From contig JAUCBJ010001293.1 in assembly GCA_032718475.1 (NCBI GenBank), positions 1 to 64,000 on the forward strand: a DNA stretch of 64,000 nucleotides, written 5' to 3'. The first letter of the stretch is position 1, and the number at the start of each line of letters is the position of its first letter. The stretch comes from Nemertoderma westbladi. Taxonomy: Eukaryota > Animalia > Xenacoelomorpha. The notes under the pieces were generated by a model that was not told where the DNA came from, ran no database searches, and was given only the letters and a program-made list of their open reading frames with translations. The position numbers and the translations under genes are program-made. Below are positions 23,160-62,920 of the stretch, piece after piece.

Positions 23160-24131
23160 TAATACTATGGTATAGGCATAGGGTAACCGGTGCCGGTACT
23201 TCTTTCTTTATTGCATTCTTTGTACTTGCGTCTTGGCAGTCTGCCAGTATAATAATACAACTGAATATATATTAATGATATTACAGTAGGTATTAAACCA
23301 ATATCCCAATCCATCCCAGTCACTATCTACAAGACATCCCAATCATCAAATCGCCCAGTATTTCGCCAGTTTAGTGTAATGTGCCTCGAACCAGGTTATT
23401 TTTATTGGAAGCCCAGGAATGTCAACACTAGCACTATGAGACAATACTGCACAGCTGCAATACGAGTGCATTAAAATTCAGAAATTTAGCAATAAAACAA
23501 GGGAGTAATTCCCTTTTTCTCACATGCATCCCTCGTTAAACCGATTTAGAAATTGTGATTTTTAATTACAAATTTCACTGTAACATATTTAGGGAAAAAA
23601 AACGTTGCCGCCGTGACCTATTTTATAAATATGCATGATCGGTTTACGTGTTGCATTGTTAAATAAAGTTTTCTTAATTGTTTGTCACCTTAATTTATAA
23701 TACAAACAGAACAGTACAGAGAGAGTTTAAATTATTTTATTACCGGTATTAAATATGTCTGTCTAAGTGTTATAGTCCTATGAAACGTTGATGTTATAGC
23801 CATAGCCTACTGTCAGACTGTTTTGAGGAGATTATAATCCTACCATTATCCTGCTTGTTTGTTGATGACATACCTATCTAATTTATATTATCTTTTGGTT
23901 CACGGAAAGTTTTTTTTATTGTAGTACCTATAGTCGGATCTTCTTTCATGTTTGTTAGCGATCAAAGGTCACCAATGGGTTTATGGTTGAATGCAACAAC
24001 TGTATATATATATATCTGTTGAGTTGATAATGGATTCAATTTCATCTCCAGCTCTAGTATAAAGTTATTTCCGCACATTATATCGATCTAACTCCTATCA
24101 CTGCGTACCGGTACTAACGTCGGCCCTCGAG

Positions 24132-38274: not shown

Positions 38275-40017
38275 GGGTGTAAACGTTACACCGACAGCAG
38301 AGAACCGACAGCAGACAACCGATAGAAGACAACCGAAAGCAGATAACCGACGGTTTTCACTTTTCGGTCTATATATATATACCGGTATATGAAGAATTTG
38401 TATTTGTTTTAAGTATATGGTGTATTTATTAAATAGAATATAATAGCCCAGCGCTGATCGAAACCATGCAACTTTTGAACACCCGCCTCAGCTATTTTTC
38501 AACTGCTGTTGGTTATCTGCTGTCGGTTGTCTGCTTTCTGTTGTCTGCTGTTGGTTATCTGCTGTTGGCTGTCGGTTGTCTGCTGTCGGTTGTTGCTGTC
38601 GGTCAGTCTGCTGTCGGTTGTCTGCTGTCGGTTGTCTACTGCTCGGTTGTCTGCTGTCGGTTGTTCTGCTTGTCGGTTGTCTGCTGTCGGTTGTCTGCTG
38701 TCGGTTGTCTGCTGTCTGTTGTCTGCTGTCGGTTTCTGCTGTCTGGCTGTCGGTTGTCTGCTGTCGATTGGTTATGCTGTCGGTTGTCAGCTGTCGGGTT
38801 GTCTGCTGTCACTGTCGGTTGTCTGCTGTCGGTTGTCTGCTGTCGGTTGTCTGCTGTCGGTTGTCTGCTGTCGGTTGTCTATGCTGTCAGCTGTCGGTTG
38901 TCTGCTGTCGGTTGTCTGCTGTCGGTTGTCTGCTGTCGGTTGTCTGCTGTCGGTTGTCCTGTCGGTGTCGGTTGTCTGCTGTCGGTTGTTACTGTCGAGT
39001 TGTCTGCTGCCGGTTGTCTGCTGTCGGTTGTCTGCTGTCGGTTGTCTGCTGTCGGTTGTCTGCTGTTGGCTGTCGGTTGTCTGCTGTCGTTTATCTGCTG
39101 TCGGTTGTCAGCTGTCGGTTGTCTGCTGTCGGTTGTCTGCTGTCGGTTGTCTGCTGTCGGTTATCTGCTGTCGGTTGTCTGCTGTCGGTTGTCTGCTGTC
39201 GGTTGTCTGCTGTCAGTTGTCAGCTGTATGCTGCGTTGTCATGCTGTCGGTTGTCTGCTGTCGGTTGTCTGCTGTCGGTTGTCTGCTGTCGGTTGTCTCT
39301 GTCGGTTGTCTGCTGTCCGTTGTCTACTGTCGTTGTCTGCTGTCGGTTGTCTGCTGTCGGTTGTCTGCTGCCGGTTGTCTGCTGTCGGTTGTCAGCTGTC
39401 GGTTGTCTGCTGTCGTTTATCTGCTGTCAGTTGTCAGCTGTGGGTTGTCTGCTGTCAGTTTTCAGCTGTCGGTTGTCTGCTTCGTTGCAGCTGTCGGTTA
39501 TCATGCTGTCGGTTGTCTGCTGTCGGTTGTCTGCTGTCGGTTGTCTGCTGTCAGTTGTCAGGTACGGTTGTCCACTGTCGGTTGTCTGCTGCCGGTTGTC
39601 TGCTGTCGGTTGTCTGCTGTCGGTTGTTTGCTGTCGGTTGTCAGCTGTCGGTTGTCTGCTGTCGGTTGTCTGCTGTCGGTTATATGTTGACGGTTGTCTG
39701 CTACCGGTTGTCTGCTGTCGGTTGTCTGCTGTCGGTTTTCTGCTGTCGGTTGTCTGCTGTCGGTTGTCTAATGTCGGTTTTCAGCTGTCGGTTGTCTGCT
39801 GTCGGTTATCTGCTGTCTGTTATATGCTGTCGGTTGTCTGCAGTCGGTTGTCTGCTGTCGGTTGTCTGCTGTCGGTTGTCTGCTGTCGGTTGTCTGCTGT
39901 CGGTTGTATGCTGTCGGTTGTCTACTGTCGGTTATCAGCTGTCGGTTGTCTGCTGTTGGTTGGCTGCTGTCGGTTGTATGCTGTAGGTTGTCTGCTGCCG
40001 GAGTGACGTTTACACCC
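38275..40017. mobile_element. Foldback element whose right arm is expanded into a 14-bp satellite
   Basis: GGGTGTAAACGTTACACCGACAGCAG vs CTGCTGCCGGAGTGACGTTTACACCC. About 4 units in the left arm vs about 100 in the right. TSD not clean. Confidence 0.8.
38500..39998. repeat. 14-bp minisatellite (CTGCTGTCGGTTGT)
   Basis: Direct tandem; the Cys/Leu/Val-rich ORFs are its translations. Confidence 0.95.
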
Positions 40018-40091: not shown

Positions 40092-43000
40092 CACCCATCT
40101 GACCCCACACTACCCATTTTACGGTAGGTACACTATACCCATTTGACCCCACACTATACCTATTTGACCCCACACTATGCCCATTTGACCCTACACTATA
40201 CCCATTTGACCCCACACTATACCAATTTGACCCTACACTATACCCATTTGACCCTACACTATACCCATTTGACCCTACACTATACCCATTTGATACTACA
40301 CTATACCCATTTGAACCTACACTATGCCCATTTGACCCTACACTATACCCATTTGACCCCACATTATACCCATTTGACCCTTAACTATACCCATTTGATA
40401 CTACACTATACCCATTTGATACTACACTATACCCATTTGACCCTACACTATACCCATTGGACCCCACACTTCAATACCCATTTGACCCTACACTATACCC
40501 ATTTGACCCCATACTATACCCATTTGACCCTACACTATACCCATTTGATACTACACTATACCCAATTGACCCTACACTATACCCATTTGACCCTACACTA
40601 TACACATTTGATACTACACTATACCCATTTGACCCTACACTATACCCATTTGACCCTACACTATCCCCATTTGACCCTACACTATACCCATTTGATACTA
40701 CACTATACCCATTTGACCCTACACTATACCCATTGGACCCCACACTTCAATACCCATTTGACCCTACACTATACCCATTTGATACTACACTATACCCATT
40801 TGACCCTACACTATACCCATTGGACCCCACACTTCAATACCCATTTGACCCTACAATATACCCATTTGACCCTACACTATACCCATTTGACCCTACACTA
40901 TACCCATTTGACCCTACACTATACCCATTCGACCCTACACTATACCCATTTGATACTACACTATACCCATTTGACCCTACACTATACCCATTCGACCCCA
41001 CACTATACCCATTTGACCCCACAATATACCCATTTGACCCTACACTATACCCATTCGACCCTACACTATACCCATTTGACCCCACACTATACCCATTTGA
41101 CCCTACACTATACCCATTTGACCCCACACTATACCCATTTGACCCCACACTATACCCATTTGACCCTACACTATACCCATTCGACCCCACACTATACCCA
41201 TTTGACCCCACACTATACCCATTTGATACTACACTATACCCATTTGACCCTACACTATACCCATTTGACCCTACACTATACCCATTTGACCCTACACTAT
41301 ACCCATTCGACCCCACACTATACCCATTTGACCCCACAATATACCCATTTGACCCTACACTATACCCATTTGACCCTACACTATACCCATTTGACCCTAC
41401 ACTATGCCCATTTGACCCTACACTATACCCATTTACCCCACACTATACCCATTTGACCCTACACTATGCCCATTTGACCCTACACCTACACTATACCCAT
41501 TTGACCTCACACTATACCCATTTGACCCTACACTATACCCATTTACCCCACACTATACCCATTTGACCCTACACTATGCCCATTTGACCCTACACCTACA
41601 CTATACCCATTTGACCTCACACTATACCCATTTGACCCTACACTATACCCATTTGATACTACACTATACCCATTTGATACTACACTATAACCATTTGACC
41701 CTACACTATGCCCATTTGACCCTACACTATACACATTTGATACTACACTATAACCATTTGACCCTACACTATGCCCATTTGACCCTACACTATACCCATT
41801 TACCCCACACTATACCCATTTGACCCTACACTATGCCCATTTGACCCTACACCTACACTATACCCATTTGACCTCACACTATACCCATTTGACCCTACAC
41901 TATACCCATTTACCCCACACTATACCCATTTGACCCTACACTATGCCCATTTGACCCTACACCTACACTATACCCATTTGACCTCACACTATACCCATTT
42001 GACCCTACACTATACCCATTTGATACTACACTATACCCATTTGATACTACACTATAACCATTTGACCCTACACTATGCCCATTTGACCCTACACTATACC
42101 CATTTACCCCACACTATACCCATTTGACCCTACACTATACCCATTTGATACTACACTATACCCATTTGATACTACACTATACCCATTTGACCCTACACTA
42201 TACCCATTGGACCCCACACTTCAATACCCATTTGACCCTACAATATTCCCATTTGACCCCACACTATACCTATTTGATACTACACTATACCCATTCGACC
42301 CCACACTATACCCATTTGACCCTACACTATACCCATTCGACCCCACACTACACCCATTTGACCCTACACTATACCCATTTGACCCTACACTATACCCATT
42401 TGACCCTACACTATACCCATTTGACCCTACACTATACCCATTCGACCCCACACTATACCCATTTGACCCTACACTATACCCATTAGACCCTACACTATAC
42501 CCATTTGACCCTACACTATACCCATTTGACCCTACACTATACCCATTTGACCCTACACTATACCCATTTGACCCTACACTATACCCATTCGACCCCACAC
42601 TATACCCATTTGACCCTAGACTATACCCATTAGACCCTACACTATACCCATTTGACCCTACACTATACCCATTTGACCCTACACTATACCCATTTGACCC
42701 TACACTATACCCATTCGACCCCACACTATACCCATTTGACCCTACACTATACCCATTCGACCCCACACTACACCCATTTGACCCTACACTATACCCATTT
42801 GACCCTACACTATACCCATTTGACCCTACACTATACCCATTTGACCCTACACTATACCCATTCGACCCCACACTATACCCATTTGACCCTAGACTATACC
42901 CATTAGACCCTACACTATACCCATTTGACCCTACACTATACCCATTTGACCCTACACTATACCCATTTGACCCTACACTATACCCATTCGACCCTACACT

Positions 43001-46000
43001 ATACCCATTCGACCCCACACTATACCCATTTGACCCTACACTATACCCATTTGACCCTACACTATACCCATTCGACCCCACACTATACCAATTTGACCCT
43101 ACACTATACCCATTTGACCCTACACTATACCCATTCGACCCCACACTACACCCATTTGACCCTACACTATACCCATTTGACCCTACACTATACCCATTTG
43201 ACCCTACACTATACCCATTTGACCCTACACTATACCCATTTGACCCTACACTATACCCATTCGACCCCACACTACACCCATTCGACCCCACACTACACCC
43301 ATTTGACCCTACACTATACCCATTTGACCCTACACTATACCCATTCGACCCCACACTATACCCATTTGACCCTACACTATACCCATTTGACCCTACACTA
43401 TACCCATTCGACCCCACACTATACCCATTTGACCCTACACTATACCCATTTGACCCTACACTATACCCATTCGACCCCACACTACACCCATTTGACCCTA
43501 CACTATACCCATTTGACCCTACACTATACCCATTTGACCCTACACTATACCCATTTGACCCTACACTATACCCATTTGACCCTACACTATACCCATTCGA
43601 CCCCACACTACACCCATTCGACCCCACACTACACCCATTTGACCCTACACTATACCCATTTGACCCTACACTATACCCATTTGACCCTACACTATACCCA
43701 TTTGACCCTACACTATACCCATTTGACCCTACACTATACCCATTTGACCCTACACTATACCCATTCGACCCTACACTATACCCATTCGACCCTACACTAT
43801 ACCCATTTGACCCTACACTATACCCATTTGACCCTACACTATACCCATTCGACCCCACACTATACCCATTTGACCCTACACTATACCCATTCGACCCTAC
43901 ACTATACCCATTTGACCCTACACTATACCCATTCGACCCTACACTATACCCATTTGACCCTACACTATACCCATTTGACCCTACACTATACCCATTTGAC
44001 CCTACACTATACCCATTCGACCCTACACTATACCCATTTGACCCTACACTATACCCATTTGACCCTACACTATACCCATTCGACCCCACACTATACCCAT
44101 TTGACCCTACACTATACCCATTTGACCCTACACTATACCCATTTGACCCTACACTATATCCATTGGACCCCACACTTCAATACCCATTTGACCCTACACT
44201 ATACCCATTTGACCCTACACTATACCCATTCGACCCTACACTATACCCATTTGACCCTACACTATACCCATTTGACCCTACACTATACCCATTCGACCCC
44301 ACACTATACCCATTTGACCCTACACTATACCCATTTGACCCTACACTATACCCATTTGACCCTACACTATATCCATTGGACCCCACACTTCAATACCCAT
44401 TTGACCCTACACTATACCCATTCGACCCCACACTATACCCATTTGACCCTACACTATACCCATTTGACCCTACACTATACCCATTCGACCCCACACTACA
44501 CCCATTTGACCCTACACTATACCCATTTGACCCTACACTATACCCATTTGACCCTACACTATACCCATTTGACCCTACACTATACCCATTTGACCCTACA
44601 CTATACCCATTCGACCCCACACTACACCCATTCGACCCCACACTACACCCATTTGACCCTACACTATACCCATTTGACCCTACACTATACCCATTTGACC
44701 CTACACTATACCCATTTGACCCTACACTATACCCATTCGACCCTACACTATACCCATTTGACCCTACACTATACCCATTTGACCCTACACTATACCCATT
44801 CGACCCCACACTATACCCATTTGACCCTACACTATACCCATTTGACCCTACACTATACCCATTTGACCCTACACTATATCCATTGGACCCCACACTTCAA
44901 TACCCATTTGACCCTACACTATACCCATTTGACCCTACACTATACCCATTCGACCCTACACTATACCCATTTGACCCTACACTATACCCATTTGACCCTA
45001 CACTATACCCATTTGACCCTACACTATACCCATTTGACCCTACACTATACCCATTTGACCCCACACTATACCCATTTGACCCTACACTATACCCATTTGA
45101 CCCTACACTATACCCATTTGACCCTACACTATACCCATTCGACCCCACACTATACCCATTTGACCCTACACTATACCCATTTGACCCTACACTATACCCA
45201 TTTGACCCTACACTATATCCATTGGACCCCACACTTCAATACCCATTTGACCCTACACTATACCCATTTGACCCTACACTATACCCATTCGACCCTACAC
45301 TATACCCATTTGACCCTACACTATACCCATTTGACCCTACACTATACCCATTCGACCCCACACTATACCAATTTGACCCTACACTATACCCATTTGACCC
45401 TACACTATACCCATTCGACCCCACACTATACCCATTTGACCCTACACTATACCCATTTGACCCTACACTATACCCATTTGACCCTACACTATACCCATTT
45501 GATACTACACTATACACATTCGACCCCACACTATACCCATTTGACCCTACACTATACCCATTCGACCCCACACTACACCCATTTGACCCTACACTATACC
45601 CATTTGACCCTACACTATACCCATTTGACCCTACACTATACCCATTTGACCCTACACTATACCCATTCGACCCCACACTATACCCATTTGACCCTACACT
45701 ATACCCATTAGACCCTACACTATACCCATTTGACCCTACACTATACCCATTTGACCCTACACTATACCCATTTGACCCTACACTATACCCATTCGACCCC
45801 ACACTATACCCATTTGACCCTACACTATACCCATTCGACCCCACACTACACCCATTTGACCCTACACTATACCCATTTGACCCTACACTATACCCATTTG
45901 ACCCTACACTATACCCATTTGACCCTACACTATACCCATTCGACCCCACACTATACCCATTTGACCCTACACTATACCCATTAGACCCTACACTATACCC

Positions 46001-48040
46001 ATTTGACCCTACACTATACCCATTTGACCCTACACTATACCCATTTGACCCTACACTATACCCATTCGACCCTACACTATACCCATTCGACCCCACACTA
46101 TACCCATTTGACCCTACACTATACCCATTTGACCCTACACTATACCCATTCGACCCTACACTATACCCATTTGACCCTACACTATACCCATTTGACCCTA
46201 CACTATACCCATTCGACCCCACACTACACCCATTTGACCCTACACTACACCCATTTGACCCTACACTATACCCATTTGACCCTACACTATACCCATTTGA
46301 CCCTACACTATACCCATTTGACCCTACACTATACCCATTCGACCCCACACTATACCCATTCGACCCTACACTATACCCATTTGACCCTACACTATACCCA
46401 TTTGACCCTACACTATACCCATTCGACCCTACACTATACCCATTTGACCCTACACTATACCCATTTGACCCTACACTATACACTATACCCATTCGACCCT
46501 ACACTATACCCATTCGACCCCACACTATACCCATTTGACCCTACACTATACCCATTTGACCCTACACTATACCCATTCGACCCTACACTATACCCATTTG
46601 ACCCTACACTATACCCATTTGACCCTACACTATACCCATTCGACCCTACACTATACCCATTTGACCCTACACTATACCCATTTGACCCTACACTATACCC
46701 ATTTGACCCTACACTATACCCATTCGACCCTACACTATACCCATTTGACCCTACACTATACCCATTTGACCCTACACTATACCCATTCGACCCTACACTA
46801 TACCCATTTGACCCTACACTATACCCATTTGACCCTACACTATACCCATTTGACCCTACACTATACCCATTTGACCCTGCACTATATCCATTGGACCCCA
46901 CACTTCAATACCCATTTGACCCTACACTATACCCATTTGACCCTACACTATACCCATTTGACCCTACACTATATCCATTGGACCCCACACTTCAATACCC
47001 ATTTGACCCTACACTATACCCATTTGACCCTACACTATACCCATTCGACCCTACACTATACCCATTTGACCCTACACTATACCCATTTGACCCTACACTA
47101 TACCCATTCGACCCCACACTATACCCATTTGACCCTACACTATACCCATTTGACCCTACACTATACCCATTCGACCCTACACTATACCCATTTGACCCTA
47201 CACTATACCCATTCGACCCCACACTATACCAATTTGACCCTACACTATACCCATTTGATACTACACTATACCCATTTGATACTACACTATACCCATTTGA
47301 CCCTACACTATATCCATTGGACCCCACACTTCAATACCCATTTGACCCTACACTATACCCATTTGACCCTACACTATACCCATTCGACCCTACACTATAC
47401 CCATTTGACCCTACACTATACCCATTTGACCCTACACTATACCCATTCGACCCTACACTATACCCATTTGACCCTACACTATACCCATTTGACCCTACAC
47501 TATACCCATTCGACCCTACACTATACCCATTTGACCCTACACTATACCCATTTGACCCTACACTATACCCATTTGACCCTACACTATACCCATTTGACCC
47601 TACACTATACCCATTTGACCCTACACTATACCCATTTGACCCTACACTATACCCATTCGACCCTACACTATACCCATTCGACCCTACACTATACCCATTC
47701 GACCCCACACTATACCCATTTGACCCTACACTATACCCATTCGACCCTACACTATACCCATTTGACCCTACACTATACCCATTTGACCCTACACTATACC
47801 CATTCGACCCCACACTATACCCATTTGACCCTACACTATACCCATTTGACCCTACACTATACCCATTTGACCCTACACTATATCCATTGGACCCCACACT
47901 TCAATACCCATTTGACCCTACACTATACCCATTTGACCCTACACTATACCCATTCGACCCCACACTATACCCATTTGACCCTACACTATACCCATTTGAC
48001 CCTACACTATACCCATTCGACCCCACACTACACCCATTTG
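40092..48040. repeat. 21-bp satellite, ~7.9 kb (GACCCTACACTATACCCATTT) with occasional 24-bp variant units
   Basis: Roughly 375 units; ORFs (PFDPTLY)n, (HYTHLTL)n and (SVGSNGY)n are repeat translations. Confidence 0.97.
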
Positions 48041-50685: not shown

Positions 50686-52349
50686 TGCTCTTTTATGTTG
50701 CGTTTTATTCACTTTTTTTTTTATATAGGCCTATGTTATAAACAAATAAAGTTGAAAAAATATTTCTTTCATAACAAAAAAAATCTGCCATATTTTAAAA
50801 TAAATAAATAAAATCTGAAATATTAAAAAAAAATGAAATAATATTGTATAAATGTTGGGTAACGGCAATATGTTCCAGAACATTTATATGTATCAAAACT
50901 TAAAAATAGCTACAAAAAAAAGTATTATAAAATGATCAATAATGCTTGATAGGGCCGCGGTGATGGAGACGTTTTAAAATTATTTTCCAACAACAATTGT
51001 AAAGCGAAAATACAAGTCTTTTTAAATATAAGTATTATACAATATTCTATATATTAAAAGGTGGTGTACATTAAGTATATTACCTTTAAAATTGACGTAA
51101 CAACTTCGATAGAATCGGGTTCCCAAAATAGTTAGGTCTTCAAGCTCACCATCTCCCAAATCCAAATGAATCTTCAAATTTCCATCAAATTCTTCGTATC
51201 GCGGCAATCTTGTTTCGCAAATCAATGGCAAAAGTCCTTTCTCATATTGCTATCGCTGCATTTTTCTTGCGTTTCCAACTTTTGGATTTTTTGGATCTAT
51301 CGCCTTACATAAGGCGGTAGATCCAGATAAGGCAATCTTTCTCAAACCTAAATGTCACTATTAATCACAATAATTTTTAATTATTTTAGTCAAAGCACTC
51401 GTTGCCTCCAACTCTCTTTAAGGTTATTTTCATTGCCTAAATGTAACTTATTACTGCAATGTTTTGAATCATAAAAACATAATATTCTAGAATGTTTAAT
51501 GTTGTTGCTAACACATTCTCTACATAGATTAACATTTTTTTGGAAATTTTGTTATGATTTTATCCTCCAAACAAACGGCAATAAAAAAAATTGCTCAACC
51601 TTTCCCAAAGTCTTTATAGCGAAAATTTATTATTATAATGTGGAACAACATCATGAGCAAATAAAATTGCAGTCATACGCTGGTGAACGGTTCGTCAGTA
51701 AAATGTACCAAGCGTCTACTCGACTATAGCTACTGTAACTGCGGAAACTTAGATAAAGGAATGTTTAACCTGGTTGCCTAACAATAATATTGTTAGGCAA
51801 CCAGGTTAAACATTAACAAAAATTAAATTTCACCATAAAAAGGAGATAAGGATATTATCCTTATCTCCTTTTTATGGTGAAATTTAATTTTTCAATTTAA
51901 TTTTGCGAATATTTAATTTCGCTAATCACTTTAAGGTCCCTTTACTGCCGGAATTATGAAACCTTTGTAATAACAATTATTTTTTGGTCCGATTTTACTG
52001 CATTACACTTAAATAACATAAAAAATATAAATATTACACTTATAAACGTTATTTTCAAGAACATATTATTTGGTATCGAATTCGATGCAATCGGCAAAAA
52101 AGTTATCTTTTTTATTTTGTTTTTTTAACAAATATGCCGATTGTATCAAATTAGATACATATTTAATTTATTTGGAATCGCAGGCATATAGTGGTGTATT
52201 AGTCATTTAGTTGCTACATTTAGGTTACTAGTGATGGTACAACTGGGTTACGAACGAGGTTACAATTTGGTAATGTGTGAGGTTACAATTTGGTTACGAG
52301 TAAACTGGAACTGGTTTATGACGAGGTTGACCTCGTTAACTGTGTCAGA

Positions 52350-53065
52350 AGTTGAGTTACAGTTCGGTCATGAGTGGGATACAGCTCGATCACAAGTGAG
52401 TAACAGCCTTGTTACGAGTAAGTTACAGCTCAGTCACAAGTGAGTTACAGCTTGGTCACAATTGAGTTACAGCTCGGTCATTATCACAGTTATGTTACAG
52501 CTCGGTCACAAGTCACAGCTCGGTCACAAGCAAGTCACAGCTCGGTCACAAGCAAGTCACAGATCGGTCACAATTGGGTTTTCAGCTCGGTCACAAGTGA
52601 CTTACTGCTCAGTCACAAGTGAGTTACAGCTTGGTCACAATTGAGTTACAGCTTGGTCACAATTGAGTTACGCTTGGTCAGAAGAAAGTCACATCTCGGG
52701 CACAAGTGAGTTACAGCTCGGTAACAGGTGGGTTACAGCTCGGTCACAAGTGAGTTACAGCTCGGTAACAAGTGGGTCACAGCTCGGTTACTAATGAGTT
52801 GCAGCTCGGTCACAAGTGAGTTACAGCTCGGTAACAAGTGGATTACAACTCGGACACAAGTGAGTTTACAGCCCGGTCACAAGTGAGTTACAGCTCGGTA
52901 ACAAGTCAGTAACAGCTCGGTCACAAGTGAATTACAGCTCGGTCATTAATAAGTTACGGCTCGGTCACAAGTAAATTACAGCTCGTTTACACGTGAGTTA
53001 CAGCTCGGTAACAAGTGGGTCACAGCTCGGTCACTAATGAGTCACGGCTCGGTTACAGGCGAGTT
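52350..53065. repeat. 22-bp minisatellite (GAGTTACAGCTCGGTCACAAGT)
   Basis: About 30 diverged tandem units. Confidence 0.9.
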
Positions 53066-53255
53066 ATGATCATGAGTGGGTTACTGGCCTAGAGATGATC
53101 CTCCTTCATCAGGAATTGACCTGCCTTAGTGAGATTTTCAAATAAAATTAAGCCTATTGTATCTAATTTGATACATGTTATTAAATGATCTCAAATATTA
53201 CTATTTACAGGGGTATTGTACGGAGCCCAGGAAGGGACATGAGAAAAATATTTTT

Positions 53256-53356
53256 CTAACACGAGTCCACGTGTTACTAACACGAGCCCTCGTGTTACTA
53301 ACACGAGCCCACGTGTTACTAACACGAGCCCTCGTGTTAGTAACACGAGCCCTCAT
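53256..53356. repeat. 21-bp palindromic subterminal repeats of the left TIR (TAACACGAGCCCTCGTGTTAC)
   Basis: 4-5 tandem palindromic units, mirrored at 58900-58999. Confidence 0.85.
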
Positions 53357-53389
53357 GATAGCTCCAACGACCATTTACGTTAATATTAC

Positions 53390-54537
53390 ACGAAGTGGGG
53401 CCTTCGCGCAGCACGTGACTTAATTATACTTAGTTATACATTTCGCCCTCTAGCGGCAGACTGGAGGACTCCAGACCGTTTACTGCCCACCAAAGACTCA
53501 GGCCGACTTCTACTACATATCTGCTACGTTTCAGCTTGAACGGATCATAAATAACGAGATGGGAGAAAGATTTCACTTTCAAACATTTCGCCCTCTAGCG
53601 GCAGACTGAAGAACTGCACACGGATTAGCCTTTAATTCAATTCAATTCAATTCCTTCTTTCAAAGTCACAGCTAATGGTCTAGTACATATCTGCCAAATT
53701 TCAGCATAAATGGATTAAAAGCAAAGAAATGGGAGGACATTTAACGTTTAGACATGTGGCCCTCTAGCAGGAGACTATTGCTCTGATGGTGTCTGAAAGT
53801 CTCTCAAACGTCTCAACTTTAGCTCATATTGATACCTACAAATTTTCAACTTGGCAGCTTTAAATCCGACAAAGTTATTAGCATGTCAAAATCGTAACGA
53901 CGACAACGATTTCACTTTCAGACCTTTGGCCCTCTAGCGGCAGACTGGAGAACTGCAGATGGATTCGCCTCCTTTGAAAGTCACTGCTAATGGTCTAATA
54001 CATATCTGCCAAGTTTCAGCTTAAACGGATTAAAAGCAAATAAATGGGAGGGCATTTAATGTTTAGACATGTGGCCCTCTAGCGGGAGACCATTGCACTG
54101 ATGGTGTCTGAAAGTCTCTCAAAAATCTCAACTTTTGCTCATATTGATACCTACAAATTTTCAACTTGGCAGCTTTAAATCCGACAAAGTTATTAGCATG
54201 TCAAAATCGTAACGACGACAACGATTTCACTTTCAGACCTTTGGCCCTCTAGCGGCAGACTGGAGAACTGCAGATGGATTCGCCTCCTTTGAAAGTCACA
54301 GCTAATGGTCTAATACATATCTGCCAAGTTTCAGCTTAAACGGATTAAAAGCAAAGAAATGGGAGGGCATTTAATGTTTAGACATGTGGCCCTCTAGCGG
54401 GAGACCATTGCACTGATGGTGTCTGAAAGTCTCTCAAAAATCTCAACTTTTGCTCATATTGATACCTACAAATTTTCAACTTGGCAGCTTTAAATCCGAC
54501 AAAGTTATTAGCATGTCAAAATCGTAACGACGACGAC

Positions 54538-54630
<93 letters not shown>

Positions 54631-54726
54631 AACGACGACGACGACGACGACAACTATTTGCATAAATTGACCCACCCCCTAACAGTGTCAATTCGCTAAG
54701 GCTCCGCCAACTTCGTGGCTCGCCCC
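53390..54726 (+). mobile_element. Non-autonomous insert (Helentron/HINE-like) splitting the left TIR; three ~315-bp tandem repeats plus (GAC)n
   Basis: The intact right TIR gives the empty site AATATT-AC-AAAT; the filled site is AATATT-AC-[ACGAAGTGGGGCC..ACTTCGTGGCTCGCCCC]-AC-AAAT. CATATCTGCC at 53686, 54001 and 54316. Confidence 0.8.
54527..54651. repeat. (GAC)n microsatellite, ~40 units
   Basis: Read directly; explains the poly-D and poly-R ORFs. Confidence 0.97.
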
Positions 54727-54932
54727 ACAAATTTGGAGTTGTTTGATTGGTTGTAGTAACATAGGAGAACTAAATTGGAGGGAAATTAAAATTGTATCTC
54801 AGTGGTTCTTACGTTTCTGTTCTGTTCCTGTATGTTCGTGTATGACAACAGTTCGAAGTTTCCCACTTAATTGAATTCGCAGTAATTCAACTTAGCAGCG
54901 CGAACTATTGCATGCCCAGCACATTTTGACAT

Positions 54933-56138
54933 ATGTGGCCCGATCAGTTAATGCCGCTTCGCAAAATTTATTTAGACCTTAGCATGCCTTATAAAGATAT
55001 TTCGTCTGTACTTGCCAATGATCATGGGATAAGCATTGGTGAGCGACAACTAAAACGTTTATTTAGAGATTTCGGATTACAACGTCGAAATTACACACCA
55101 TTGGAAGAAGTTGTAGAATTTATTAAAAATCAATTGGCTGGATCGGGAAGCATGCTGGGTTATAGAATGATGTTTGAAAAGTGTCGCCACAACGGCTTAG
55201 TTGTGAAAAAGGAGGACGTACAAAGAATTCTCAAGAAACTTGATACGCGAGGAGTCGAGCTTAGACAATCGCACCGACTTAAACGACGTTCATACTATGC
55301 CAGAGGTCCAAATTACCTCTGGGGCATTTGGACGGCTATGATAAACTAAAACCGTTCGGTCTATGTATAAGCGGTTGCATAGATAGGTTTTCACGCAAGA
55401 TTTTGTTCTTAGAAGTTTATAAAACCAATAACAACCCAAAAATTATTGGTGGCTATTTTGTTGATTTAGTATCTCGCCTTGGTGGATGCCCTTTAATGGT
55501 CAGGGCAGACTACGGAACTGAAAACACCTACGTGAGAAGCTTTCAGATGTTGTTTCGCCGCAATTGCACTGATGGCTTGGTAACCCGGGCGTATACAGAC
55601 GGGCGCAGTACGGCAAATCAAAGAATCGAGAGTTGGTGGGGGGTTCTTCGGAAGGAGAACGCGCAGTTCTGGATAGAATTATTTAAAGAATTGCAGGCAG
55701 AATGTATCCTCCCCGGAGACTTTGTTTCAAAGGCTGTTGTTCAGTTCTGTTTTACTTCACTAATTCAAAACGAACTAGACACATTAGCATCAGTGTGGAA
55801 CCACCATCTTATTCGTCCTTCAAGAAATCCCAACGTTCCAAGCGGTCGACCTTAATATTATGTATTGTTCGCCTAGCCTCTACCGTTGTGCTACCGAACA
55901 GCTCGTAACCGTAGCGCCTTCTGAAATTAATACCTGCTGCTCCAACGAATTATTCCGCTCATCAGCTATTCCTTGTGATGCCGATGTATATGAACTGTGC
56001 ATTCAGTTAATGCGTGAGAATAACCTCCGACTTCCTCTATCCGTAGACGACGCCGTGGAACTTTATCTCATCCTTCATAATGCAATTCGCGAACTTCTTG
56101 GAAACAACGTAAACGATATGTATACTGAGTCAGATTAA
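54933..56138 (+). pseudogene. IS3/integrase-core DDE transposase, two frameshifts (~55325, ~55855)
   Basis: N-terminal HTH-like region (ISIGERQLKRLF, GYRMM, LKRRSYYARGPNYLW), then DGYDKLKPFGLCISGCIDRFSRKI (D1), VRADYGTEN (D2), NQRIESWW (E) and WNHHLIRPS. Three consecutive ORFs join into one ~400-aa protein. Confidence 0.9.
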
Positions 56139-56423
56139 CTAATTATTATTATAGTTGAGTATGATGTAGGTGTGTTTTTATGATATACTGTACTATAATT
56201 ATTGACTGTATAGCGAGAATTAATTAATTTGATAATCGATATAATTTATTTATATCAATAATCAACCATCAATCAACCCCCCCCCCCCGCCCCTCGTTCC
56301 TTTATTTATTATCGGAGATATCTATTTTAAATTAAAATAATAAAATAATTACTGACCGTTTGCATTTGAATAATAAAAGTATGTTTAAAACACATGTTTA
56401 CAATTTATTTATTAATTAATAAT

Positions 56424-58702
56424 TTACATACCAACAAGGTCCTGGAGATAATCCCTCCAATAGGTTAGCATTCGACGCTCGCGTCGCCGCCGAATTGAAC
56501 CTTGCTCTGACCACTGCACTTCAAATAGCTGTTCAACAATAGTGGCGTCAAGTTCACACTTTGAATAAACGAAAACTTCCTTAAAGATATCTCTATGATA
56601 ATTTTAATAATTCTAATATTATTTAGAACTCCGAGAGTCTTTAATCCTTCCTTGAATCTAGAAAGGTGAATTACTATTGTAATACATTAACTTAACAATG
56701 TACCAAACTTGTAATTGCCTTTCCGTCGTCATAGTAACGATCATTATTGTTGATAATTATAGTTAATAAAAAAATTAATTAATTAAATAAATATTGTAAA
56801 TTCAACAACTTTAATAAAACATGGCTCAATAGAAAGGAGTGAAGGAAATTAAGAAAGTTATAAAGATTGATTAAGTTACATAAATTTTAGATAATTGTAA
56901 TTATTCAGCAATTAATCCATATAATTAGTGGCAGTTTTTAAATATAGGAAAAATTACTGTTCTAGTGGCCGGCGAATGCGATCGAAGCAAATAAACTTGT
57001 TAAGACTGGAGACAAGTGTATCTATATGGGTGAATTTTGTTGTCAAATTGTAGCAACCAGACATTCCAATAATCTTCTGGGCCTTATTGACTGCTTCGCG
57101 AAAGTTATCATCAGCTTCCGACACAGCTATCTAAAGAAACAGTACAAATAATTAATAAATAGCGGCCCGGATTTATAATGAATTAATGCCCTAGAATGGC
57201 CTTATAACTATTATGGTGGACCGGTCCGTTATAACAGTATATTTATACAGTAGTTATAGGCCGCCATAATAGTCTATAGTTATAGGCCTATATGTTATTG
57301 ATACAAATAGCATTGATTTGAGATCGCCAATCGTAGTCATTGATATGTTACAAATTAAACATAATTTGAGAATCCAGCTCTTGGGAAACCAGTAATTCGT
57401 AGGTAAACGGTGAAAAGAATAAGGGAACTGGGCCACGATGGGCTATCATATATGCAATCATGCGGCCAAAAATGAAATATTTGTTGTTAATTACACCTGC
57501 AAAATAATAAAAAAATAGACACTAACAAATTGGTCTAAATATTTAATTACTTTAATAGAATCCTATATAAATAAAAATAATTAAGTAATAAAATAAAATA
57601 ATTAAGTAATAAATAATTACTAACTGTTATAATCAAGAGCAAAGCATTTAGCAGTATCTGGTCCTTCAAAAGTAGGTGCTCTGGAAATAGCCTGCATGGC
57701 AAGTCGCATGAACTCCCTACGAGGACCCCCTGCATCCTTTCCGTCCTCGTCACTAAACTTTACATCCAAAGATAAACATGGATTGAAGGTACTTCGAGTA
57801 AACCCCCGCATTACTCCATCCATAACATCTTCTCTATCGACGTTGATGATGTTTCTTCCCTCCTCGTTAAGCTGTTCTAACAAACTAATTAAAATCTTTG
57901 ACAATGAAATTGATCGTTGACGTCAAAGTTACTTTCAGCTGCCGTATCCCTAGAGATGAGAGAGGAAAGCGGATCTTCGGAGATGACAGTAGGCCGATCT
58001 TCCGAGGCCTAGAATCTAACAGAGGGCTGAACTTCCAAGATGACAGAAGGATGATCTTCAGAGATGGATGAAGGATGATCTTCGGAGATGGATGACGGAT
58101 GATCTTCGGAGATGGATGAAGGATGATCTTCGGAGATGGATGACGGATGATCTTCGGAGATGGATGAAGGATGATCTTCAGAGATGGATGAAGGATGATC
58201 TGCAGAGATGGATGAAGGATGATCTTCCGTGATAGCGGAATGTGGATCTGGATAGGTTGAAAAGATTTCAGCAGGTGGATCGGCCGAGGAAACATCTAAT
58301 TTTAATTTCGAACCAATATATAATCGAAGTAAGCCAACCAAGCTCCAACCTCGAGCAAGATTTATCATAAGTATTACCATTCATATTAACATCCTGATCT
58401 CGGATTCGTTTTGAACCTTTAGCTATTCCCAGCCTATTTCGTATCCGTTCCAATACAGTATTTCCATTAGAGTCGGCGTTCGATTCAGAGGTTGGTTTAG
58501 GATTATTAGAACTACTGGCACCGTTCATCTGCCTACAAAATGCCTTTACAGAAACTCGGTCGCCGTATGCTGGTAAGTAAAGTTTCAGTTCAACGTCATT
58601 TAGTAGTAATATAACTTCTGGGCTTATCTTGTCGGTTACCATCCGAGGAATGAACTCGCCCAAGCTTCGTTCTCTCATGAATGTTTCAAGTTCGTTATTC
58701 AT
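56424..58702 (-). pseudogene. Spliced transposon cargo gene: N-terminal SAM-like region, (SEDHPSSI)n linker, HECT E3-ligase domain (G2E3-like), lacking the distal C-lobe
   Basis: Exons ~58702-57625, 57496-~57308, 57130-56958 and 56657-56432/56424, with GT..AG introns whose phases match at two junctions (57625/57496, 56958/56657). Motifs LDVKFSDEDGKDAGGPRREF, YFIFGRMIAYMIAHRGPVPLFFS, EQFKEGLKTLGVL and WSEQGS..TYWRDYLQD. Frameshifts and one in-frame stop. Confidence 0.8.
58040..58230 (-). repeat. 24-bp coding repeat (SEDHPSSI)x~7 inside the cargo gene
   Basis: GGATGATCTTCGGAGATGGATGA(A/C) tandem units. Confidence 0.9.
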
Positions 58703-59631
58703 TATTCACACTTAAGTCAGTATACCTGCAGCCGTTAAGAGAAATGCGAAATATATAATAGGCTTATACTGAACAGAAACGTAAGAACCACTTATATACA
58801 ACTTTAATTCCCCTCCAATTTAGTTCTCCTATGTTACTACAACCAATCAAACAACTCAAAATTTGTAATATTAACGTAAATGGTCGTTGGAGCTATCATG
58901 AGGGCTCGTGTTAGCTAACACGAGGGCTCGTGTTAGTAGCACGAGGGCTCGTGTTAGTAACACGAGGGCTCGTGTTAGCTAACACGAGGGCTCGTGTTCG
59001 AAAAATATTTTTCTCATGTCCCTTCCCGGGCTCCGTAGTCTTGCATTTTTTGAAGAAAAAATTTGTTTTTTGGCTATTCTTGATACGAAAAAAAATTTTC
59101 GAGTGGAACATTAAATTTATATAGAACAAATTAATTTTTTAGAAATGTTGAAAAATGGCATAATGTTAAAACGAAACCTTCTTATATACAACTGTAATTT
59201 AAAGTTACATAACTTGATGGTAGGTGGCGCTACAGTATATCAAACGAAACCCCAATAAGTATAGATAGAATACGATACAGCAGGCCACTATTATTCAAAG
59301 TGCTTTGAGTTGGAATTATATGTCCACTTAAATAACATGTATCGAATTCGATACATACGGTGGTAGAGGGTTAAGGGAGCCGGCGGGATAAAACAATAAA
59401 CTTTAGGATTATTAATAAATTTTACTAAATTTTCAATTATCAATTAAATTTCCGCTAAAACAGCACCCCACTTGGAAATTTGTGTACCTACCAACTACCA
59501 CAGGTACTGACTGCTTATTTGTACTATACTCTTCACTGGAAGGCTTATGAGTAGGCCCCTATCGTACATTAGTTTAATTTTTGATAAGTATTCAACGAAA
59601 CTGTTCATAGTTTTGCGTAACTGTTATTTCA

Positions 59632-59740
59632 AGCAAGCAAGCAAGCAAACAGTCGGCCGAAGCCGGAGGCGACCCGAAGGCTCCTCTTTCGATAGCTGCT
59701 ACCCGAGGGTAGGGGTGGTCGCTACTCCTATCCCAAGACT
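59632..59740 (-). mobile_element. Possible 3' end of a SINE/RTE-related retroelement with (TTGC)n tail
   Basis: GGCGACCCGAAGGCTCCTCTTTCGATAGCTGCTACCCGAGG..CGCTACTCC next to (GCAA)4; resembles invertebrate retroposon tails from memory only. Confidence 0.35.
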
Positions 59741-59936
59741 GTTATTTAGTGTGGGGGGTTTTGGTGGGACTACGCCATGGCCCCTTGGCTTGCACTAGGC
59801 AGTCAGCTGAGAGTCAGACTAGAAATACGGATGAAAATGTTGCTGCTACCTCTGGTAGTCAGACTAGAAATAGAACGTTCGAGAATACGACAACTTCTAG
59901 CGATCTGAAGGTAGTCTGACTACCTATCTAGTGATC

Positions 59937-60241
59937 TAGTTTATATGGAGGGTTGCAAAAAGTCGCAAAAGTTTATATAGAGAATAGGTGGGGCCGACAT
60001 CCATTACCAATTTGACATCTGAGTAAATGGTGATCGGAAGGGATGGTCGGTCATGGTCAGGGGCCGTATTTTCAGTTCTAGTGCGAAGACTACTGTAGAA
60101 CTGAAAATACGGCCCCTGACCATGACCGACCATCCTTTGCGATCACCATTTACTCAGATGTCAAATTGGTAATGGATGTCTCTGCCCCACCTATTCTCTA
60201 TATAAACTTTTGCGACTTTTTGCAACCCTCCATATAAACTA
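59937..60241. mobile_element. 305-bp hairpin MITE (TAG..CTA ends, ~145-bp arms, 15-nt loop), possibly Academ-like
   Basis: TAGTTTATATGGAGGGTTGCAAAAAGTCGC..GCGACTTTTTGCAACCCTCCATATAAACTA; near-perfect inverted arms. Confidence 0.8.
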
Positions 60242-60365
60242 ATGTGAATGGCTGTGTATAATCAGACCGCCAGCGACTTACGCTCAGTTCACTTTTGATC
60301 GCCTTTATACGTACCGTTTTATGGTACATGACCCAAGTGAAAGAAGTAGGCAGAATAAAGGTCAT

Positions 60366-60900
60366 AATGGCGAGCCACAAAGTTAGAGGTGCCTTAGCAA
60401 ACTGACTGTATTAGAGTGAGTCAATTTTTGCAAATAGTTGTCGTCGTCGTTGTAACGAGTTCAACATGCCGAAAACCTCGTACGATTTAAACTCACTTAA
60501 AGGGGGGGGGGGGGGGGGGGCTGCTTCGGCTACGGATGGCGAAGGAAGTTTCTGTTCTCACAAACAAACCCAAACAAACCCATTTATTCCTTTATTTTTG
60601 GTAACCGCAATCGGTCTTCAGCCCTGCCGCTGCAGTCTGCCGATAGAGGGCGAAATGTATATGAGAATGAAAACCTTCTCTCGTTTCCTTGATTTTGATC
60701 CGTTTTAAGCTTAATCTTGGCATATGTACTAGATCACTGGCTGAGTCTTTCTGGGGGAGCTAATCCGTCTGCAGTTCTCCAATCTTCCATTAATTGCCGA
60801 AATACTTGAAATGAAAAAAATGTATGAGTTCTTAAACCGTCTGCAGTTGCACAGTCTGCCGCTAGAGGGTAAAAGTAATGTGGAAAAATCTGCTTACATT
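60366..60900 (-). mobile_element. Diverged inverted relative of the 53390-54726 insert
   Basis: GGCGAGCCACAAAGTT..GCCTTAGC and TCAATTTTTGCAAATAGTTGTCGTCGTCG are reverse complements of the 54640-54726 end; it shares the CTGCCGCTAGAGGG motif. Confidence 0.7.
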
Positions 60901-60974
60901 GCATAAAGCTCCATACCATTTTTAGGCAACCACCAGAAGTCTGGGAAATCCAGCCAAGTATCTACCTGTTGACT

Positions 60975-61450
60975 TACATAGGAGTACACTCAGAATCACT
61001 AGAGGGAGCCTAGTTAGAACAGGCTGCTTCTAGTGTTGGTCTTTTTGTTTACTCCAAGAAGTCCGAAATTTTGACAGTTAACTTTGAAAGTCCTCAAGAA
61101 ATGCCTGATCGTATGAGCATACTATAAGCTCGAAGGATTGTTTGCTTGAGCATATTGACGACTTCTGTTACCTGGAATCATGGATCCGGAAGTCAGGTGA
61201 GGACCTTCGAATACGTAAGGGAATGTCATGGGCACCATTTAATGGGTTTTCCCGCATTTGGAAGTCATCGAGAATTAATCGGAAACTTAAGGTCTGATTA
61301 TTTAGAGCAGCAGTAGTTCCAGTACTCCTCTATGCGAGGCCATGTTGGGCTCTAACTGCTGAGGACACCAAATCTCTGGATGGCACATTCACAAGAATGC
61401 TACGTCGGGTTCACTGTGTCAAGTACAATGCACACATCTCCAACCAGACA
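60975..61450 (+). pseudogene. Second copy of the RTE-like RT fragment
   Basis: Close reverse-complement match to 15264-15730 (e.g. GAGGACACCAAATCTCTGGATGGCACATTCACAAGAATGCTACG), with indels. Confidence 0.85.
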
Positions 61451-62920
61451 CTACTGTATTATTTTATTTTATTGCTTTGCTGACCAATTTAAATTTATAA
61501 CTCAGATACCAACGTAAATAATTTCTAGAAAGGTTTTTTAGACAATAAGGCACTTAAGACCGGTTTACACGTGACATATTTTTCGATAATTTGTTCAGCA
61601 ACTTAATTTTGAACAACTTAGGGTACAGTCATAGGCGTACAAGGTGGGGGGAGGGGGGCTGCAGCCCCCCCCCCCCCCCCCCCCCCCCCTGTGAACCAAA
61701 AGTGGGGGCGAAAAATCCGACGAGGGAGAATGACATTCTCCCTCGTCGGATTTTTCGATCGATTCGTCGGATTGATTATATTTTTCGCCACATTGTGGCG
61801 AAAAATATAATCAATGGAGAAGAAGGGGAGAATGAGAGAGTGGAAAATAAAATCAACATCCAAAGTATAAATAATAATTGACCACATTTCTAATTTGTTT
61901 TATTACTTTATTATTTATTTTATTATTATAGATTTGTATCAATTTGTAGTAATTGTACTTTTCGAACGTTCCGTACAGCGTTCCTTCTGTATTTCTCATA
62001 GTACATGTTCCGATTGCTTAGTACGTTTTGCCTATGTAACTTTCTTTGAATGTGTTGTTGTATAATCTTTCAAATTAAATATTAAATTTGTATTTTATTA
62101 TTTAATTCCTTAAGTCTATTAGCCTCATTTATCCGTCTATGTCTAGGCGGGTTTATATAAACCCCACCATCCATTCCAATTTATTAGTCAACATGTATTG
62201 CATAACGTCGCATAAGATTCAGCGCTTCAACTGCTTTCAAAATAGTGTTTGGCGGCGCGGGTTCGAATCCAACTAAATGCTGTAGAAATTTTGCTTCTAA
62301 TTGTTCTGTCCCAAGCATTTGGACATTAGTGCCTACGCAAACCCATCCCTTATAGGTAACAGCCAAGAGATAGGATCCTGTGGGTTATTTCGTGTTTCAC
62401 ACTTTTATTTTATTTAATTAGTCATATATTGCCTTGCCCCATACAGTTATTCTGCTGTCTACTGTACAGCATGACTACACGAAGTAGCTACTTCAACTAT
62501 TTATTAATATTGATTCCACACTTTCTTGTAGCGGTACGCCAAAGTCACCATCCGTGGATTATGTAACGGCTGGCACATTTTTTTGTAGGAAAGTAAGTCA
62601 GTCTAGTTACTTTATTTCATAAACACCAATTATTTATTCATATAAACTGCATCCTTTATTAACATTGCGCTACTTTGCATCCACTATGATGTAATAACCG
62701 TTACTAAAGGCCGGTACGTGGCAACTTTCTCAACAACTTTATGAAAAACTCAGGTTGTCGAACAAAAAAGTTGCCACGTGTGCACTTGCTTTAATGCACA
62801 TTATTACTTTATGTAAATGTATACTGTATTTAGGTAGTGTTTATTTACGTAGTTAAATTCAATCACAGAGAAGTTTGCATTTTCCTTCGTGAAGAGTAAA
62901 TCGTTTACTGTAACTCTACA

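What the first reader, a model, noticed from the sequence alone, without database searches (positions are those of the whole stretch)
53219..59037. DNA transposon carrying a spliced SAM-like/HECT ubiquitin-ligase gene opposite its IS3-type transposase
Seen: one TIR pair with a near-perfect 6-bp TSD encloses exactly two convergent genes, a DDE integrase-core transposase (+) and a multi-exon gene (-) with HECT signature motifs (DAGGPRREF; GRMIA..H.GP.P.FFS; QFKEGL..LG). Established: HECT domains are E3 ubiquitin ligases, and IS3EU-type elements are described as having a second ORF. I do not recall that ORF being characterised as an E3, but I cannot confirm novelty. Inference: the E3-like gene is a standing module of this family, since it has its own introns, a TIR-proximal start and moved inside the TSD. 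It might degrade or decoy host silencing factors, or regulate the transposase. It could also explain some expanded G2E3-like gene families in animal annotations.
Basis: partly seen in the sequence, partly recalled or inferred. Interest (0 to 1): 0.9.

Follow-up and report, generated by a model that had tools for sequence, protein, structure and literature searches.

The report
Transposon carrying its own ubiquitin ligase
This is a worn-out copy of a cut-and-paste jumping gene that carries, facing its transposase gene, a broken ubiquitin-ligase gene; the same gene pair recurs in related elements from other genomes, so the ligase is likely standard equipment that helps the element jump.

Summary
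The element is real and is an IS3EU/GingerRoot DNA transposon: TACGG..CCGTA ends, about 270-bp inverted repeats, 5/6 target duplication, rva_4 DDE transposase. Its convergent second gene is SAM + ubiquitin-like domain + HECT. This copy is dead: two transposase frameshifts, an internal deletion, a stop, a frameshift and no HECT C-lobe or catalytic cysteine; a 1.3-kb repeat splits the left end. The pairing is a family trait: 24 of 80 related transposase loci carry a convergent HECT gene (8 of 9 with at least 5 kb downstream), none elsewhere; one is a complete element with a perfect target duplication; Astyanax annotations list the two genes side by side. Relatives keep the cysteine (22 of 23). 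Against strict co-evolution: two HECT lineages are mixed across the transposase tree, and three distant relatives hold a protein kinase in the same slot. One subgroup adds a FAF1-like UBX domain. Likeliest job (0.45): tagging the element's own transposase complex; rival (0.35): disarming host silencing. Ten literature searches found no report of a HECT in IS3EU, but Repbase entries were not readable. The scan noted this pairing before in three other genomes.

The parts
53213..53218 (.). left target-site duplication GTATTG
   Evidence: matches right copy GTCTTG at 5 of 6
53219..53387 (+). left TIR, outer part, starts TACGG, with 21-bp subterminal repeats (53256-53354)
   Evidence: 95% identical to right arm
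53388..54726 (.). nested 1,339-bp repeat element (2.8 x 315-bp units, ACG run) inserted into the left TIR; not part of the transposon proper
   Evidence: related copy at 60369-60875 on the other strand; Helentron-associated type is a recalled label
54727..54825 (+). left TIR, inner part
   Evidence: 93 of 99 identical to 58768-58866
54933..56138 (+). intron-less DDE transposase (HTH/Clr5-like N-terminus, rva_4 core, DD39E), frameshifts near 55321 and 55852
   Evidence: other contigs of the species lack the extra bases
56139..56431 (.). 293-bp AT-rich gap where relatives carry the HECT C-lobe exon with the catalytic Cys; absent here
56432..56657 (-). HECT exon (QFKEGL..LG ... WRDYLQD), frameshift near 56603
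   Evidence: (E 2e-13)
56958..57130 (-). HECT exon (weak match, E 0.19)
57300..57496 (-). HECT exon (GRMIA..H.GP.P.FFS); in-frame stop at 57350-57348; 3' end of exon uncertain
57625..57922 (-). HECT N-lobe exon (DAGGPRREF)
   Evidence: E 5e-19; 43% identity, E 8e-21, to P0292
57923..58330 (-). low-complexity linker with a 24-bp repeat (58046-58227), one stop and frame changes
58331..58702 (-). start of second gene: SAM domain (residues 1-62), basic linker and first strand of the ubiquitin-like domain, cut by a deletion at 58331
58768..59037 (-). right TIR, about 270 bp, ends CCGTA
   Evidence: many different flanks in other contigs
59038..59043 (.). right target-site duplication GTCTTG

Best explanation
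This is a decayed, non-autonomous copy of an IS3EU/GingerRoot cut-and-paste transposon whose convergent second gene encodes a SAM, ubiquitin-like and HECT-domain protein, which in intact relatives is likely an active ubiquitin ligase that likely tags the element's own transposase complex for removal. Shown: ends, target duplication, both genes, their lesions here, and the recurrence of the pair in other genomes (identity and standing-module claim about 0.95). Inferred from a conserved catalytic Cys and purifying selection: ligase activity in intact elements (about 0.85). Inferred only: the N-terminal SAM/ubiquitin-like part picks the substrate, the HECT transfers ubiquitin, a UBX domain in one subgroup would call the p97 unfoldase, and the substrate is the transposase left on DNA after strand transfer, whose removal would let the host repair the 6-bp gaps and would cap transposase levels (about 0.45 for the whole chain, the figure given as confidence).
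For: Ends and TSD fit the published IS3EU definition; transposase motifs match IS3EU-1_DR by eye. Convergent HECT in 23 of 80 loci at E<0.01, 0 of 80 in any other position, 0 hits on reversed peptides, plus L056 by Pfam; 8 of 9 with at least 5 kb downstream. L068 is a complete element with 97% TIRs, a perfect GATTGT duplication and ends 20/24 identical to the window's. Astyanax transposase and SAM-HECT records have neighbouring accession or locus numbers in six listed cases. Cys kept in 22 of 23 loci; pN 0.24-0.49 against saturated pS 0.72-0.85 in 6 HECT pairs. SAM and ubiquitin folds. FAF1-like coil+UBX, E 2.7e-6, found in 4 loci of one transposase clade whichever HECT type they carry. N-terminus tracks the transposase weakly (Mantel rho 0.33, p 0.037, 8 elements) while the HECT does not (rho 0.05, p 0.32). 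ClpX removal of MuA and proteasomal removal of retroviral integrase are recalled parallels, from no call.
Against: The two HECT lineages are interleaved on the transposase tree (four mixed sister pairs at 92-100 support; Mantel rho 0.16 over 24 elements), and three distant transposase loci hold a protein kinase in the slot: a freely swapped enzyme fits a host target as well as the transposase. The weak N-terminus signal can come simply from its linkage to the right TIR. 8 of 26 loci with at least 2 kb downstream show no HECT, one explained by a LINE insertion; 0 of 6 loci from the genome collection have one. Type-A relatives P0291, P0292 and P0307 have a different N-terminus with no match to the window's. 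The window's own clade lacks the UBX. This copy has no catalytic lobe.
Confidence: 0.45

Rival explanations
1. Same element, but the ligase acts on host proteins: it ubiquitylates and removes silencing or restriction factors (chromatin, small-RNA or DNA-damage proteins) so that the element is expressed or its insertions are tolerated.
For: The enzyme is exchanged between transposase lineages and replaced by a kinase in distant ones; rust-fungus IS3EU carry an alpha-kinase in opposite orientation plus TET/JBP genes read as anti-silencing tools (passages of PMC12730594); Helitrons carry active deubiquitinases (passages of PMC9741609). SAM domains often polymerise in chromatin complexes (recalled).
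Against: The module is kept from corals to fishes, molluscs, echinoderms and a beetle with the same SAM-ubiquitin-like head, slower change than a host-specific arms race would suggest (inference); its head tracks the transposase weakly.
Confidence: 0.35
2. The second protein is a non-catalytic decoy or scaffold (E2-binding N-lobe only), and the missing C-lobe here is the family's normal state.
For: No C-lobe in the window; human and mouse G2E3 have a non-functional HECT (passage of PMC3673628).
Against: 22 of 23 related loci keep the Cys motif, including the window's nearest HECT relatives L047, L042, L043, L009; this copy has many other lesions.
Confidence: 0.07
3. The gene is an old passenger with no use to the element, kept only because it sits between the ends.
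For: GingerRoot elements of clubmoss capture host gene fragments (passages of PMC6839031); some loci lack the gene.
Against: Whole open frames, conserved Cys and pN far below pS between elements with saturated synonymous sites; fixed position and orientation in 24 of 24 cases.
Confidence: 0.06
4. A one-off capture of a host G2E3-like gene by this family, or a chance neighbour.
For: Databases name relatives 'G2/M phase-specific E3 ubiquitin-protein ligase', and a survey treats 'GL-Metazoa' HECTs as host genes.
Against: Recurrence in 19 of 60 transposase clusters at 70% identity, complete elements elsewhere, multi-copy paired records in Astyanax.
Confidence: 0.02

Closest known systems
[quoted passage not shown]
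   Same: TA..TA (TAYGG..CCRTA) ends, 6-bp target duplication, integrase-like DDE core with the WHxDGYDKLKP, RxDxGTEN and NQRIE motifs, two proteins per element.
   Different: The papers read do not name the second protein of animal families; here it is SAM-ubiquitin-like-(UBX)-HECT. This copy is dead.
Rust-fungus IS3EU with alpha-kinase and TET/JBP (PMC12730594)
   Same: An enzyme gene in opposite orientation to the transposase, and cargo that moves between transposon lineages.
   Different: Alpha-kinase and dioxygenase instead of a ubiquitin ligase; fungi instead of animals.
G2E3 / GL-Metazoa class IV HECT ligases (PMC3673628, PMC2837046)
   Same: Highly divergent HECT; databases give the window-type relatives this name.
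   Different: Host G2E3 has PHD/RING-like fingers and a dead HECT; the element-borne proteins have SAM and ubiquitin-like heads, keep the Cys, are multi-copy and sit between TIRs. Neither paper mentions transposons (0 hits for 'transpos'). Whether GL-Metazoa are these very proteins was not tested.
Helitron-encoded VTD/OTU deubiquitinases (PMC9741609)
   Same: A DNA transposon that carries its own ubiquitin-system enzyme; later domestication by hosts.
   Different: Opposite reaction, rolling-circle element, domain fused to RepHel; activity was shown by experiment there and is only inferred here.
FAF1 coil + UBX p97 adaptor (PDB 11ta)
   Same: Helix plus UBX match in one subgroup of second proteins (E 2.7e-6).
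   Different: Not present in the window's own clade; p97 binding untested.

Membership tests
IS3EU/GingerRoot | TA..TA termini (TAYGG..CCRTA) with TIRs | tested here: met
   TACGG..CCGTA, about 270-bp TIRs; definition from passages
IS3EU/GingerRoot | 6-bp target-site duplication | tested here: met
   GTATTG / GTCTTG, 5 of 6; perfect GATTGT in relative L068
IS3EU/GingerRoot | IS3/integrase-like DDE transposase of the IS3EU type, no HHCC zinc finger | tested here: met
   PF24764 E 1e-25, HTH-like N-terminus; D, D, E invariant in 48 relatives and kept here; motifs match IS3EU-1_DR and IS3EU-4_CGi rows by eye
IS3EU/GingerRoot | Falls inside the IS3EU clade in a tree with the Repbase reference transposases | not testable with these tools
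   Reference rows could be read but not loaded into a tree
IS3EU/GingerRoot | Two proteins per element | tested here: met
   Two convergent genes; 'only two proteins' from a passage of PMC8232023
IS3EU/GingerRoot | Multi-copy with different flanks (mobility) | tested here: met
   8 contigs in run X1 and 9 in X3 leave the right end at 59037/59038 into unlike sequence; both TIR arms and non-autonomous copies contribute
HECT E3 ligase (PF00632) | HECT N-lobe homology | tested here: met
   Exons match a profile of relatives at E 5e-19, 4e-7, 2e-13; P0292 43% identical and matches 34 solved HECT sequences; Pfam alone below cut-off on single exons
HECT E3 ligase (PF00632) | C-lobe with catalytic Cys in this copy | tested here: not met
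   Profile positions 296-380 unmatched in the whole window
HECT E3 ligase (PF00632) | C-lobe with catalytic Cys in relatives | tested here: met
   22 of 23 loci and P0153
HECT E3 ligase (PF00632) | Ubiquitin thioester and transfer activity | not testable with these tools
   Needs biochemistry
SAM domain | Five-helix SAM fold | tested here: met
   Model of window residues 1-69, pLDDT 84.9; top VIA hit tankyrase SAM Z 8.4, rmsd 2.4, 62 aligned, top 11 rows all SAM-containing entries; Foldseek rows SAM but none at E<=0.001; P0301 Pfam SAM_2 E 8e-4, just under cut-off
Host G2E3 orthologue | N-terminal PHD/RING-like zinc fingers (zf-HC5HC2H) | tested here: not met
   No such family in 34 of 71 relatives scanned nor in the window pieces; SAM and ubiquitin folds instead
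Host G2E3 orthologue | HECT groups with host G2E3 in a tree | not tested
   No host G2E3 sequence came out of any call

The most novel reading that the evidence does not exclude
IS3EU transposons have a dedicated, swappable slot for a protein-modifying enzyme. Animal elements fill it with their own E3 ligase, in one branch with a p97 adaptor, to strip the spent transposase off DNA, a eukaryotic counterpart of ClpX acting on MuA. Most 'G2E3-like' genes in animal annotations are this cargo, and the late-arising, catalytically dead HECT of vertebrate G2E3 was itself taken from it.
Probability: 0.25. Interest if true: 0.8.

Novelty: new variant of a known kind. Interest (0 to 1): 0.6.

Why it matters
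It names the second protein of a poorly described transposon superfamily and shows a DNA transposon carrying a complete ubiquitin ligase as standard equipment. That makes two open questions testable: how eukaryotic transposase complexes are taken apart after integration, and how transposons handle host silencing. It also warns that many multi-copy 'G2/M phase-specific E3 ligase-like' genes in coral, mollusc, echinoderm and fish annotations are transposon cargo, which affects gene-family and copy-number studies, and it offers a possible origin for vertebrate G2E3.

Tried and rejected
No whole genome is held for the window, so copies could not be collected. No RNA holder was listed: the junctions are untested. 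The complex prediction of transposase with the N-terminal domains was not available: no verdict. The word-index search with the HECT exon found nothing among 67 candidates, a sensitivity miss. No relative in viral contigs (65 pattern matches, 0 confirmed). The six hits in the prokaryote genome collection look like eukaryotic DNA binned into MAGs (frameshifts, introns), so no bacterial member is claimed. No Rfam match in 52000-62000. Atlas hits for the N-terminus scored 0.76-0.80, leads only. Contig depth was not used as copy number, and thin cover at 56208-56313 was not used as evidence; whether other copies in this species keep the C-lobe is not settled. A PDB sequence search with the N-terminal alignment gave only weak SAM hits (E 0.11, 1.6). 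dN/dS could not be put as a ratio for 7 of 9 pairs because dS is saturated. No formal topology test was run. Rejected: tree congruence, one-off capture, an active gene in this copy, 'exactly two genes' between the ends.
Full report
OBSERVATION. The sequence at 53219 begins TACGGAGCCC and the one at 59037 ends GGGCTCCGTA; the six bases outside are GTATTG and GTCTTG. The inverted repeat is longer than its outer arm: the right arm 58768-59037 aligns to 53219-53387 and 54727-54825 with 256 of 268 bases identical, so a 1,339-bp repeat element (315-bp units, ACG run) was inserted into the left arm later; a relative of it lies at 60369-60875. The + strand gene at 54933-56138 matches Pfam rva_4 (E 1e-25) with a helix-turn-helix-like start and is split over three frames. 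A search with its core gave 264 longer relatives among 540 candidates, 120 listed, up to 62% identical, named from fishes, a frog, echinoderms, a hemichordate, bivalves, beetles and a coral. The three catalytic residues are invariant in 48 aligned relatives and present here. The published definition of IS3EU/GingerRoot is TA..TA ends and 6-bp duplications (passages of PMC10045372; PMC12730594), and the core matches the IS3EU-1_DR row of that paper's supplementary alignment motif by motif, by eye (one of 18 parts read). The host is an animal by inference from these relatives; it was not identified.

THE SECOND GENE. On the - strand it starts at 58702. Its first exon found 71 relatives in 1.84 billion representatives. 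Of 34 longer ones scanned, 8 matched Pfam HECT, 6 above the cut-off; full-length ones are 690-800 residues and come from Astyanax, Salminus, Hoplias, Patiria, a firefly, Sinanodonta and others. A model of an intact head (P0122, pLDDT 88.5) gave ubiquitin-fold matches for residues 100-208 (12 at E<=0.001; best Z 9.3, rmsd 2.2, 76 aligned). A model of the window's own first 69 residues (pLDDT 84.9) matched SAM domains (best Z 8.4, rmsd 2.4, 62 aligned; no Foldseek row at E<=0.001). The HECT exons fail Pfam singly but match a profile of relatives at E 5e-19, 4e-7 and 2e-13 and P0292 at 43%, which matches 34 solved HECT sequences and aligns its Cys with theirs. Introns 57624-57497 and 56957-56658 have GT-AG ends and join frames; the junction between them is unclear.

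THIS COPY IS DEAD. Contigs of other runs of the same species lack the extra bases at 55321 (about half of the depth in three runs) and 55852 (nearly all). In three of four runs, contigs leave the window at 58331 and continue in frame like the family's ubiquitin-like domain, so that domain is deleted here. There is a stop in the linker, a stop at 57350, a frameshift near 56603, and no match to the last 85 profile positions, the C-lobe with the catalytic Cys, anywhere in the window. A joint from 55875 to 57402 in three runs shows another, deleted copy that also held both genes, and many contigs leave the right end into different flanks. The four runs stand for at most three samples and are all contigs.

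IS THE PAIR A FAMILY TRAIT? A HECT lies downstream on the opposite strand in 21 of 80 at E<0.001, 23 of 80 at E<0.01, with 0 of 80 in any other position and 0 hits on reversed peptides; Pfam adds L056, 24 of 80. Most loci are too short to tell: the counts are 17 of 26, 13 of 19 and 8 of 9 for at least 2, 3 and 5 kb downstream (L056 not counted), and 0 of 12 with at least 2 kb upstream; the ninth long locus, L059, has a LINE inserted there. The 21 firm cases fall in 20 of 70 transposase clusters at 90% and 19 of 60 at 70% identity. L068 is a whole element: TIRs 3215-3316 and 12507-12608, a perfect GATTGT duplication, ends 20/24 identical to the window's; L031 also has enclosing TIRs; the other 9 of 11 loci scanned showed no convincing enclosing pair (L044 duplicates L043). 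In Astyanax, all 3 listed GenBank transposase accessions follow a SAM-HECT accession directly, and 3 RefSeq cases do so within two numbers, while 3 listed RefSeq transposase accessions have no listed neighbour and 1 is only near; lists are cut at four accessions, numbering is only a proxy for position, and the two annotations may count the same loci. The Cys is kept in 22 of 23 loci, and pN is far below a saturated pS in all 6 HECT pairs. Relatives of the window's HECT type are named 'G2/M phase-specific E3 ubiquitin-protein ligase(-like)' in Acropora and Paramuricea.

RESULTS AGAINST A SIMPLE PICTURE. Trees of 24 paired elements (L044 dropped as a duplicate; several HECT rows are short) show two deep HECT lineages (support 92 and 100) mixed over both transposase clades, with four mixed sister pairs at 92-100; Mantel rho is 0.16, p 0.017. 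In the 8 elements with a head, head and transposase correlate weakly (rho 0.33, p 0.037) and HECT and transposase do not. A FAF1-like coil plus UBX (E 2.7e-6 to FAF1; Pfam UBX below cut-off) occurs in L030, L077, L068 and L013, all in the clade the window is not in. None of 6 loci from the genome collection has a HECT; in the three distant, intron-rich ones (L083, L084, L086) a protein kinase gene fills the same convergent slot, though enclosing TIRs were not seen. So the slot is stable and the enzyme is exchangeable.

HOW IT LIKELY WORKS. Shown: architecture, linkage, selection. Inferred: an active E3 in intact elements; substrate choice by the SAM/ubiquitin-like head; p97 recruitment by the UBX subgroup. 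I put 0.45 on the transposase complex as the substrate (removal after strand transfer, and dose control), because the module is kept across animal phyla, the head follows the transposase a little, and integrase-type complexes are known to need active removal (recalled, from no call). I put 0.35 on host silencing factors, because the enzyme swaps freely and fungal IS3EU carry anti-silencing cargo.

WHAT IS IN PRINT. Searches: IS3EU+HECT 0 papers; IS3EU 62, 40 listed; HECT+DNA transposon+Repbase 73, 30 listed, none on topic by title; GingerRoot 13; G2E3/transposon/transposase, 25 listed; transposon+E3+TIR+HECT domain 0; phase-specific E3+transposase 2, off topic by title; transposon-encoded ligase terms 42, 20 listed; G2E3-like+expansion 0; G2E3+HECT+evolution 3. 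Passages only were read from PMC10045372 (plus part of its supplement), PMC12730594, PMC6839031 (no 'ubiquitin'), PMC5638112 (G2E3 hits among unclassified repeats), PMC4455052, PMC10853768, PMC9741609, PMC8232023 (IS3EU 'encode only two proteins', published only in Repbase), PMC2837046 (G2E3 arose after the chordate/echinoderm split), PMC11353290 and PMC3673628 (divergent G2E3, GL-Metazoa, GL-Bikonta families, no 'transpos'). The Kojima review is not held and Repbase text cannot be searched; entry names ending _1p and _2p suggest curators annotated both proteins, so the HECT may be noted there. Unread supplements of these papers may bear on novelty.

VERDICT. A real, decayed member of a known superfamily; the ligase cargo is a family trait for which I found no report; new variant of a known kind, interest 0.6. 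The scan noted the same pairing in three other genomes; my reading was set down before that look-up.

Noticed in passing
L083:7514-7954, L084:7924-8352, L086:7231-8265 (minus strand): Distant, intron-rich IS3EU-type transposases face a protein kinase gene (Pfam Pkinase E 5e-15, 1e-15) in the slot where animal relatives have the HECT gene; enclosing TIRs not seen. The contigs sit in bacterial MAG records but look eukaryotic.
   Followed up: partly
L030:7442-7870, L077:3740-4162, L068:9832-10368, L013:3225-4889 (minus strand): A FAF1-like coiled coil plus UBX domain between the ubiquitin-like head and the HECT, in one transposase clade only.
   Followed up: partly
window 24063-27374 (+): A single 1,104-codon open frame at 58-70% GC in a 35% GC region, with WW, MyTH4 and RhoGAP domains (ARHGAP39/Vilse-like architecture, name recalled), with no intron inside the frame.
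   Followed up: partly
window 53388-54726 and 60369-60875: Two related repeat elements with internal tandem units and a short ACG/GAC run, in opposite orientations; resemble Helentron-associated non-autonomous elements (recalled label).
   Followed up: partly
window 59937-60241: A near-perfect hairpin (arms of 61 and 85 bases, 98% complementary), MITE-like.
   Followed up: no
window 40129-48040, 38503-40001, 1-1568, 10292-11692, 5537-6629, 33723-34647, 52344-53066: Many long tandem arrays, the largest 374 copies of a 21-bp unit with strong strand skew.
   Followed up: no
window 15235-15774 (-): Fragment of a non-LTR reverse transcriptase (RVT_1 E 8e-5, below cut-off).
   Followed up: no
P0291, P0292, P0307: Fish proteins with the window's HECT type but a different N-terminal domain; the head and the HECT are shuffled independently.
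   Followed up: partly
L059:2967-7825 (minus strand): An intact-looking L1-type LINE inserted just downstream of the transposase.
   Followed up: partly
P0123, P0129: Database gene models that fuse the SAM-ubiquitin-like head to leucine-rich repeats or to a piggyBac transposase; likely annotation joins across an inserted element.
   Followed up: no
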